Shown here piece by piece: positions 7,562-13,643 of a stretch of DNA of 13,643 nt. The notes below the pieces were generated by a model. That model did not search any database. It was given only the letters and a program-made list of their open reading frames with translations, and was not told the DNA's origin. How positions within the stretch are numbered: position 1 is the stretch's first letter; each line of letters begins with the position of its first letter. The stretch lies in NCBI GenBank assembly GCA_016839365.1, contig JAEOUH010000038.1, positions 1 through 13,643 on the forward strand. Reading direction: 5' to 3'. Both the position numbers and the translations under genes were made by a program. This DNA is from Candidatus Hermodarchaeota archaeon. GTDB lineage: Archaea; Asgardarchaeota; Hermodarchaeia; Hermodarchaeales; Hermodarchaeaceae.

Positions 7562-8101
7562 ATGGCCGAAAACGATGATCGTTCTAAACGGAAGCGTTGG
7601 TGGGATGATAAGTCCAATGATTCACAGTTCGAAGCACTTCAACGGATGTTTGAAGAAATCATGAAGATGATTTCTGATATTAATCCTGAGGACATGTTTG
7701 GTCCTGATGCCGAGCACCAACTTGAAGAAATCCTCGAACAGCTCCAAAAGAATCCCATGGTTTGGGGCTTCTCTGCAGGTATCGGGCCAGATGGTAAGAT
7801 ACGATTAAATCCATTTGGCAACCTTAACCCCGAGGGTGGACCGCCAGTGGTCCGCAATGAACGTGAACCACTCATTGATGTTATGGATCAAGATGACCAG
7901 CTTATTATCATTGCAGAACTCCCAGGCGTGAAACGGAATGAAATCCACATCAAAGTGAATGATTATAGTCTAACTCTCCAAGTGGATTCAAAGGATCGAA
8001 AATATGCAAAAGACATCGATCTTCCCGCACCTGTTGATGTTGACTCCGCCAAGACCAGTTATCGTAATGGCATCTTAGAAATACACCTCCAGAAACGTTA
8101 A
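7562..8101 (+). CDS. hsp20: Archaeal small heat-shock protein (Hsp20/alpha-crystallin family)
   Basis: PMVWGFSAGIGPDGK..LNPFGN (archaeal Hsp20 pre-ACD motif), then REPLIDV...IIAELPGV.R.EI...IDLP..VD.DSAKTSYRNGILEI (alpha-crystallin domain). Confidence 0.93.
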   Translation: MAENDDRSKRKRWWDDKSNDSQFEALQRMFEEIMKMISDINPEDMFGPDAEHQLEEILEQLQKNPMVWGFSAGIGPDGKIRLNPFGNLNPEGGPPVVRNEREPLIDVMDQDDQLIIIAELPGVKRNEIHIKVNDYSLTLQVDSKDRKYAKDIDLPAPVDVDSAKTSYRNGILEIHLQKR

Positions 8102-12660: not shown

Positions 12661-12698
12661 CACAGGCCCTTCTAAAGGGGCTGAGGAGGACTTCGAAT

Positions 12699-13643
12699 CT
12701 GACAAAGTCGCAACTCCCTGCGGATAAGAAACGAACCCTAGTCACCCGTGCGGAGGACACCACGAACCCTGCCCATGGTGGTATCCCCCAGGAGCGAACC
12801 ATTCCCGAGCTGTTTCGGGATGGTATCATCAATCTGGATAGTTTGCTGAAAGGTGCTGAGCTCCCTTCCAAACCCAGAAAAACCTCCTGGACCAACCAGC
12901 CACGAAGTAGTTTCGTGGGTTAAACGCATTTTGGGACTGGATCGCGCAGGGCACTCAGGTACATTGGACCCCCAAGTTACAGGGGTACTACCCGTCATGC
13001 TTGGGAATGCGACAAAAATTGCGAATGCCCTCCTGACATCCGGCAAAGAATACATCTGTGTGATGCGAGTACACCGAAAGGAGAATCCCCAAAAGATCCG
13101 AGACGCCGCTGGTGAATTCGTTGGCACTATTTATCAGCGCCCGCCGGTTCGCTCTTCGGTGAAACGGAGACTGCGAACACGAGAAATCTACTACCTTGAG
13201 GTTCTCGAAATCGAGGATCAAAACGTCCTTTTCCGTGTAGGATGCCAAGCAGGGACATATATCAGAAAATTGGTCTTTGATCTCGGGGAGGTCCTCGGAG
13301 GAGGTGCCCACATGGCTGAACTCCGACGCACTCGCACTGGCCCTTTCAGAGAGGATGCCACTTTGGCTTCGCTCTATGATGTGATGGATGCCTTTCATTT
13401 CTGGAACGAAGAGAAGGATGAACGGCTTCTTCGCCAATATGTGCAACCATTAGAAAATGGGGTAGAACATCTTCCCCAGATTATCATTCGCGATACTGCA
13501 GTTGATGCGATTTGTCATGGGGCTAATCTTGCGGTGGCTGGTGTATTAAAACTCCATACGGATATTCAACCTGGTGACATGGTAGCTATTATGACCCTAA
13601 AGGGAGAGCTGGTGGCACTTGCGGTTGCGCAGCAGGAGAGTTC
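12699..13643 (+). CDS. cbf5: H/ACA RNA-guided pseudouridine synthase Cbf5 (TruB family plus PUA domain); spliced join(12699..12839,12880..>13643), 3' truncated
   Basis: Exon 1 reads (M)TKSQLPADKKRTLVTRAEDTTNPAHGGIPQERTIPELFRDGIINLD. Exon 2 is in a different frame and reads KPPGPTSHEVVSWVKRILGLDRAGHSGTLDPQVTGVLP...KEY...IYQRPPVRSSVKRRLR.R...CQAGTYIRKL...GAHMAELRRTR...DTAVDAICHGA, open to the window end. The CTG start is inferred. Confidence 0.95.
12840..12879 (+). other. Putative 40-nt bulge-helix-bulge (BHB/HBh') type pre-mRNA intron in cbf5
   Basis: CTGG (12834-37) pairs with CCAG (12874-77) as the 4-bp central helix. The 3-nt bulges are ATA (12838-40) and AAA (12878-80), and the inner helix is GTTTG (12841-45)/CAAAC (12869-73). 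Cleavage after the second nt of each bulge removes exactly 40 nt and joins GAT|AAA, giving D|K. Confidence 0.88.

What the first reader, a model, noticed from the sequence alone, without database searches (positions are those of the whole stretch)
12828..12890. Frameshifting 40-nt BHB-type mRNA intron in cbf5 at the NLD^KP motif
Seen in sequence: the conserved Cbf5/TruB motif I (GIINLDKPPGPTSHEV) is split between D and K by AGTTTGCTGAAAGGTGCTGAGCTCCCTTCCAAACCCAGAA (40 nt, not a multiple of 3). Unspliced, exon 1 runs into TAA at 12921-23 and gives a 74-aa peptide lacking the catalytic Asp (GAC 12967-69). The junctions fold as CUGG/CCAG (4 bp) with a 3-nt bulge AUA, an inner stem GUUUG/CAAAC, and AAA on the opposite strand. 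The adjacent outer helix is only 1 bp (U12833-A12881), so this is a relaxed HBh'/bulge-helix-loop form. Established knowledge: the archaeal tRNA splicing endonuclease EndA cuts after the second bulge nucleotide, and that rule restores the frame and motif with no residue gained or lost. cbf5 is the classic archaeal protein gene with a BHB intron, known from Crenarchaeota (Aeropyrum, Sulfolobus). From memory, and needing verification, that intron lies at the catalytic Asp codon, about 29 codons downstream of this site. Inference: this is an independent intron gain at a new position in an apparently non-crenarchaeal (Asgard/Bathyarchaeia-like) host. That would suggest convergent splicing-based control coupling pseudouridylation capacity to EndA/RtcB activity.
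Basis: partly seen in the sequence, partly recalled or inferred. Interest (0 to 1): 0.95.

Follow-up and report, generated by a model that had tools for sequence, protein, structure and literature searches.

The report
tRNA-type intron in Asgard cbf5
The only gene found for the RNA-modifying enzyme Cbf5 in this Asgard archaeon is broken by a 40-base insert shaped like a tRNA intron, at a different place from the one archaeal coding-sequence intron I found in print, so its messenger RNA very probably has to be cut and rejoined by the tRNA-splicing enzymes.

Summary
Observation confirmed. A 40-nt insert (12840-12879) splits cbf5 motif I (NLD^KP) in a Hermodarchaeota (Asgard) genome. All 14 genomes of the genus with cbf5 carry it (40-43 nt, all three phases; every in-frame copy has a stop); the sister genus (4/4) lacks it. 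The 4-bp central helix holds in 22/22 distinct copies, inner helices covary, and both exons are under purifying selection. The host has a two-subunit EndA with the broad-specificity loop lysine, and RtcB. The site lies 88 nt upstream of the crenarchaeal catalytic-Asp intron, so it is a separate, genus-level gain. Splicing is inferred (about 0.93): no RNA contig covers the junction. The cbf5-specific control reading is weak. The same genome has like inserts in dnaG and an EF-2-family gene, and other Asgard families carry an intron at the crenarchaeal Asp site. Entrenched, near-neutral introns tolerated by a permissive EndA fit better. No paper on it was found. This scan noted the same intron before on other DNA (at least five notes).

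The parts
12683..12689 (+). Shine-Dalgarno-like GAGGAGG, 9 nt before the start
   Evidence: sequence; a similar element lies before the start in most genus members
12699..12839 (+). cbf5 exon 1, 47 codons, CTG start, DKCLD domain up to motif I ...NLD
   Evidence: Pfam PF08068 model positions 2-47 of 58; pN/pS 0.20 over 14 genomes; start aligned with ATG/GTG of relatives
12834..12837 (+). exon strand of the 4-bp central helix (CUGG)
   Evidence: Leu codon CTG invariant in 14/14, one of only 4 invariant codons among 110 conserved degenerate ones
12838..12840 (+). 5' bulge AUA; predicted cut between 12839 and 12840
   Evidence: fold; cut after the second bulge residue (Yokobori 2009)
12840..12879 (+). 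40-nt intron: inner helix 12841-45/12869-73, apical hairpin, central-helix strand CCAG 12874-77
12878..12880 (+). 3' site AAA (open bulge; outer helix 0-1 bp); predicted cut between 12879 and 12880
   Evidence: AAA in 22/22 distinct copies; outer helix 1 bp in 16 and 0 bp in 6
12880..13643 (+). cbf5 exon 2 (TruB_N, TruB_C_2, PUA); runs off the window and ends on contig C20 through a 127-nt overlap; spliced product 337 aa
   Evidence: pN/pS 0.12
12921..12923 (+). TAA that ends the unspliced frame (74-aa peptide)
12967..12969 (+). catalytic Asp codon, uninterrupted here; site of the crenarchaeal intron and of an intron in other Asgard families

Best explanation
The insert is an intron of the cbf5 pre-mRNA, removed by the tRNA-splicing route. 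Shown in sequence: exon CUGG pairs with intron CCAG next to a 3-nt bulge and an intron stem, while the exon-exon helix is 0-1 bp (HBh' form). Inferred: the two-subunit EndA, helped by its CSL-like loop, cuts after 12839 and 12879; RtcB joins the exons, giving a 337-aa Cbf5 from a CTG start; the intron probably circularises. It was gained once, in the ancestor of this Hermodarchaeia genus, independently of the Asp-site intron. It most likely persists by entrenchment: a permissive EndA removes it, and in an invariant motif only an exact deletion would be viable. Cbf5 thereby depends on EndA and RtcB, but this need not be a selected control.
For: 14/14 genus genomes with cbf5 and 16 metagenome contigs carry it; 22 distinct sequences of 40, 41, 42, 43 nt; 7/7 in-frame copies hold a stop. 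Central helix 4/4 in 22/22. On 14 aligned copies 96% of cells pair and 6 pairs change on both sides (0/500 shuffles; slid controls at most 63%). Both exons under purifying selection. No second cbf5 in the 84%-complete assembly. EndA alpha keeps Tyr/His/Lys and aligns without a gap to the Aeropyrum CSL (IRKPK against VEKPR, K44); a beta paralogue and RtcB are present. Carriers form one clade (100/98) sister to four intron-less genomes. Same relaxed geometry in dnaG and EF-2-family inserts of this genome.
Against: No spliced RNA seen: neither RNA run covers the junction, and no full-length protein of this genus is among 107 hits or 57 listed cluster members. The central helix itself shows only one-sided changes. 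A competing exon-1 hairpin wins in the RNAalifold consensus and in a few members. Kin are not independent, so the shuffle counts overstate.
Confidence: 0.93

Rival explanations
1. Same intron, but selected as a regulatory switch: splicing efficiency sets Cbf5 level and ties RNA pseudouridylation to EndA/RtcB activity. (Confidence is for regulation, on top of splicing.)
For: cbf5 has been hit at two sites in separate lineages; weak CTG start in part of the genus and a competing exon-1 hairpin that hides the helix strand; Watanabe and Yokobori proposed negative regulation for the crenarchaeal intron.
Against: Like inserts in dnaG and an EF-2-family gene, each in an invariant motif; two genus members also carry a LAGLIDADG intein in cbf5, so cbf5 attracts intervening elements in general; sister genus lacks the intron; the long exon-exon stem shows no covariation beyond shuffles.
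Confidence: 0.15
2. Translational recoding (frameshift, read-through or ribosomal bypass) on the unspliced mRNA.
For: A stable hairpin in the insert; in this genome AAT 12831 and AAC 12871 are matching Asn codons 40 nt apart (sequence).
Against: Lengths 40-43 would need different shifts and stop read-through in close kin; the landing codon is AGC or GGC in most relatives; a hop would replace the conserved LD by PE; conservation centres on EndA geometry.
Confidence: 0.02
3. Split gene: a short N-terminal peptide plus an exon-2 protein from an internal start, as databases annotate it.
For: Gene callers give 229-310-aa products lacking DKCLD for this genus; many keep the catalytic Asp.
Against: KPPGPTSHE is invariant with synonymous change in 14/14, yet in this genome it lies upstream of the first in-frame start (TTG 12931, no clear SD); unspliced tails differ arbitrarily (49-78 aa).
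Confidence: 0.03
4. Pseudogene or assembly error.
For: The assembly is 84% complete, so a second copy could be missing.
Against: Insert in an independent run and in all relatives; pN/pS 0.20 and 0.12; no intron-less second copy found in any genus genome searched.
Confidence: 0.01

Closest known systems
cbf5 pre-mRNA intron of Desulfurococcales and Sulfolobales (Watanabe 2002 as cited in Yokobori 2009, PMC2738675)
   Same: Same gene; short (16-44 nt there, 40-43 here); relaxed BHB; hetero-oligomeric EndA; variable interior; missed by annotation.
   Different: Position: phase 0 between D47 and K48 of motif I, against phase 1 inside the catalytic Asp codon 88 nt downstream. Host is Asgard. Confined to one genus. 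Splicing is shown there, inferred here.
Non-canonical HBh'/BHL tRNA introns cut by CSL-bearing (alpha-beta)2 EndA (PMC3241643); intron-rich Asgard tRNA genes (PMC11291895; bioRxiv 10.64898/2026.10.13.758758)
   Same: Same motif class and enzyme type; Asgard lineages are known to gain such introns repeatedly.
   Different: Substrate is a coding sequence; word searches of the two Asgard papers found no mention of cbf5 or of mRNA introns.
Haloferax HVO_1309 5' UTR BHB intron (PMC7714728)
   Same: EndA-processed mRNA.
   Different: In the untranslated leader; does not break a reading frame.

Membership tests
EndA-spliced (BHB/HBh') archaeal intron | 4-bp central helix between exon and intron strands | tested here: met
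   4/4 in 22/22 distinct copies
EndA-spliced (BHB/HBh') archaeal intron | 3-nt bulge and intron-side helix h' | tested here: met
   AUA/ACA bulge; h' 94% paired with two-sided changes
EndA-spliced (BHB/HBh') archaeal intron | Cut after the second bulge residue restores the functional sequence | tested here: met
   Restores NLDKP with no residue gained or lost, for all four lengths
EndA-spliced (BHB/HBh') archaeal intron | Host has broad-specificity EndA and RtcB | tested here: met
   Alpha subunit with catalytic triad and K44-equivalent loop lysine, beta paralogue, RtcB; subunit assembly inferred
EndA-spliced (BHB/HBh') archaeal intron | Excision from RNA in the cell | tested here: inconclusive
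   The two RNA runs that hold part of the stretch do not cover the junction
EndA-spliced (BHB/HBh') archaeal intron | Cleavage by EndA in vitro | not testable with these tools
   bench test
Strict canonical hBHBh' motif | Exon-exon helix h next to the 3' bulge | tested here: not met
   0-1 bp in 22/22; it is the relaxed form
Crenarchaeal cbf5 intron (orthologous) | Between first and second base of the catalytic Asp codon | tested here: not met
   Asp codon intact; insert 88 nt upstream
Group I/II or homing-endonuclease intron | Ribozyme core or encoded endonuclease | tested here: not met
   40-43 nt single hairpin in all copies; too short for either

The most novel reading that the evidence does not exclude
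Asgard archaea use EndA/RtcB splicing of messenger RNAs as a regulated switch, in the manner of HAC1/XBP1, with cbf5 recruited twice at different sites and the competing exon hairpin gating the cut. The weaker form, that several conserved genes of this lineage are spliced without regulation, is much more likely (about 0.85).
Probability: 0.15. Interest if true: 0.85.

Novelty: new variant of a known kind. Interest (0 to 1): 0.62.

Why it matters
In the papers I could search, the crenarchaeal cbf5 intron is the only coding-sequence intron of this type shown in archaea. A second, independent site in the same gene, in relatives of eukaryotes, with further cases in dnaG and an EF-2-family gene of the same genome, says that endonuclease/ligase mRNA splicing arises repeatedly where EndA is permissive. 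The sister genus without the intron gives a dated gain and a natural control. In practice, Cbf5 of this whole genus is annotated as a truncated protein, and other Asgard core genes may be too.

Tried and rejected
RNA evidence: runs X1 and X2 hold only the L14e part; the X2 piece at 12870-12908 continues as another organism's intron-less cbf5 and is no evidence. Looking for a full-length, spliced-form protein among homologues and cluster members found none; the JGI scan gave only unspliced contigs. A long exon-exon stem (12811-24 with 12895-909) pairs in 88% of cells but shows no covariation beyond shuffles, 245/500 (one search was mis-registered by me); not claimed. A genome-wide scan by shape plus frame-joining ranked cbf5 first and dnaG second but did not beat decoy geometries and missed the EF-2 case, so it cannot count introns. 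No similar sequence elsewhere in the genome as a donor. Paper searches for cbf5 + intron + Asgard gave 0 hits, and for Hermodarchaeota + intron nothing relevant; subscription journals are not covered. One Pfam call failed on a frame slip (57) and was repeated.

Full report
Observation. The window is contig C6 of a 2.2-Mb, 84%-complete genome and holds the ribosomal protein cluster ending secY, adk, DUF106, cmk, L14e, cbf5 (gene names from my own knowledge of these families). Named relatives at 73-83% identity are Hermodarchaeota, and the closest (95%) is filed as Promethearchaeota, so the host is an Asgard archaeon. cbf5 starts at CTG 12699 behind GAGGAGG; relatives have CTG, GTG or ATG at the same place. 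The frame matches the DKCLD model to position 47 of 58 and then breaks. Removing 12840-12879 restores NLDKPPGPTSHEV; the only other 40-nt deletion that does so, one base to the right, gives the same product. Unspliced, the frame stops at TAA 12921-23. The gene ends on contig C20 through a 127-nt overlap, giving 337 aa, and no other copy was found.

Is it real and more than chance? A contig from another run spans the insert without a gap. Nine Watson-Crick pairs in this geometry occur in 4.5e-6 of 40-nt segments of this genome, and here the ends are fixed by homology. Shape alone would not be enough: decoy geometries score about as often genome-wide.

Relatives. All 14 genomes of the genus in which cbf5 was found carry an insert at the same junction; the four genomes of the sister genus do not. 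Sixteen JGI contigs add further copies. The 22 distinct sequences are 40, 41, 42 or 43 nt long, so all three phases occur, and all seven 42-nt copies hold an in-frame stop. The central helix is complete in 22/22, the 3' site is AAA in 22/22, and the outer helix is 0-1 bp. On 14 aligned copies 96% of cells pair, with two-sided changes in the intron stems; the central helix changes on one side only. The Leu codon that forms the exon strand is invariant CTG, one of 4 invariant codons among 110. Both exons are under purifying selection, pN/pS 0.20 and 0.12. This argues strongly against decay, recoding and a split gene.

Machinery. The genome encodes two EndA paralogues and RtcB. One aligns over nearly its whole length to Aeropyrum EndA alpha (E 6e-46), keeps the catalytic Tyr, His and Lys and has a lysine at the place of K44 in the Crenarchaea-specific loop, which is needed for relaxed motifs (PMC3241643). 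The other lacks the catalytic His and looks like the structural subunit. Cutting and joining are inferred; no RNA contig covers the junction.

Position and history. Yokobori 2009 places the crenarchaeal intron between the first and second base of the catalytic Asp codon. Here that codon (12967-69) is intact and the insert lies 88 nt upstream. In a tree built from the part downstream of both sites, the 12 carriers included form one clade (100/98), sister to the intron-less genus (the two intein-bearing rows were left out). Among 301 Asgard genomes searched, a break at this site was seen only in this genus; the match table was cut, so in-frame copies elsewhere are not fully excluded. One gain in the genus ancestor is the simplest reading. 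Separately, 13 genomes of five other Asgard families carry a 26-41-nt BHB insert exactly at the crenarchaeal Asp site.

Function. Following leads from earlier scan notes, I confirmed in this genome a 28-nt insert in dnaG, present in both genera, and a 31-nt insert in the RGITI motif of an EF-2-family gene; both restore the conserved motif under the same cut rule and both have a 0-1 bp outer helix. Two genus members also have a LAGLIDADG intein in cbf5. Inserts in invariant motifs of several core genes suggest elements that are tolerated because EndA removes them and that are hard to lose (inference; such sites are also the easiest to detect). Regulation of Cbf5 was proposed for the crenarchaeal case and is not excluded here: a competing exon-1 hairpin can hide the helix strand. 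Nothing tested supports it directly.

Novelty. No paper in the library joins cbf5, intron and Asgard; a 2020 paper still calls the crenarchaeal cbf5 intron the only other mRNA case; word searches of two Asgard intron papers found only tRNA introns. This is a new variant of a known kind: known mechanism and gene, new site and lineage. The scan has noted the same intron in other genomes; those notes are not used as support. Interest 0.62.

Noticed in passing
L031-L041, L181, L183 (genomes G024, G029, G034, G037, G039, G041, G044, G047, G049, G053, G056, G069, G086): cbf5 of five other Asgard families has a 26-41-nt BHB insert exactly at the crenarchaeal catalytic-Asp site, mostly with a 4-5-bp outer helix. 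Whether it is ancestral or regained is open.
   Followed up: partly
G000:C19:62740-62767 (in L198): 28-nt BHB insert in dnaG after GQTEGL, found in 10 of 19 class genomes by an exact pattern, in both genera (28-31 nt); so it is older than the cbf5 intron.
   Followed up: partly
G000:C47:14879-14909, minus strand (L191): 31-nt BHB insert in the RGITI motif of an EF-2-family gene; removal restores the motif and frame.
   Followed up: partly
L043:204-2693:- and L042 (G010, G005): cbf5 carries a LAGLIDADG intein of about 530 aa after YIRKL, besides the intron: both RNA and protein splicing are needed for one enzyme.
   Followed up: partly
window 12699-12701: CTG start codon behind a strong SD, shared by at least six genus members; others have GTG or ATG.
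   Followed up: yes
L011, L012, L042 against L199, L200, L204: The 9-mer TGAAGGGGT is shared by the cbf5 intron and the 3' end of the dnaG intron in G001, G004 and G005; a weak hint of a common source, possibly chance.
   Followed up: no
window 12814-12838: Exon-1 hairpin that can hide the CUGG strand; the third-position G at 12818 is kept in 14/14 across Gln, Arg and Trp codons.
   Followed up: partly
L185 (G157:C57), L186 (G083:C131): Second cbf5 copies with very short (19 and 17 nt) Asp-site inserts in genomes whose other copy has none; perhaps bin contamination.
   Followed up: no
P0001-P0030, P0108-P0154: Database Cbf5 proteins of this genus are all called truncated (at most 310 aa, no DKCLD domain).
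   Followed up: yes
G000 tRNA genes: ARAGORN finds only 20 tRNA-like genes, many over-long or with wrong anticodons, which suggests several non-canonical introns per gene.
   Followed up: no
window 7562-8101: A small heat-shock-like gene sits between L30 and L15 inside the ribosomal protein cluster (named from my own reading of the sequence).
   Followed up: no
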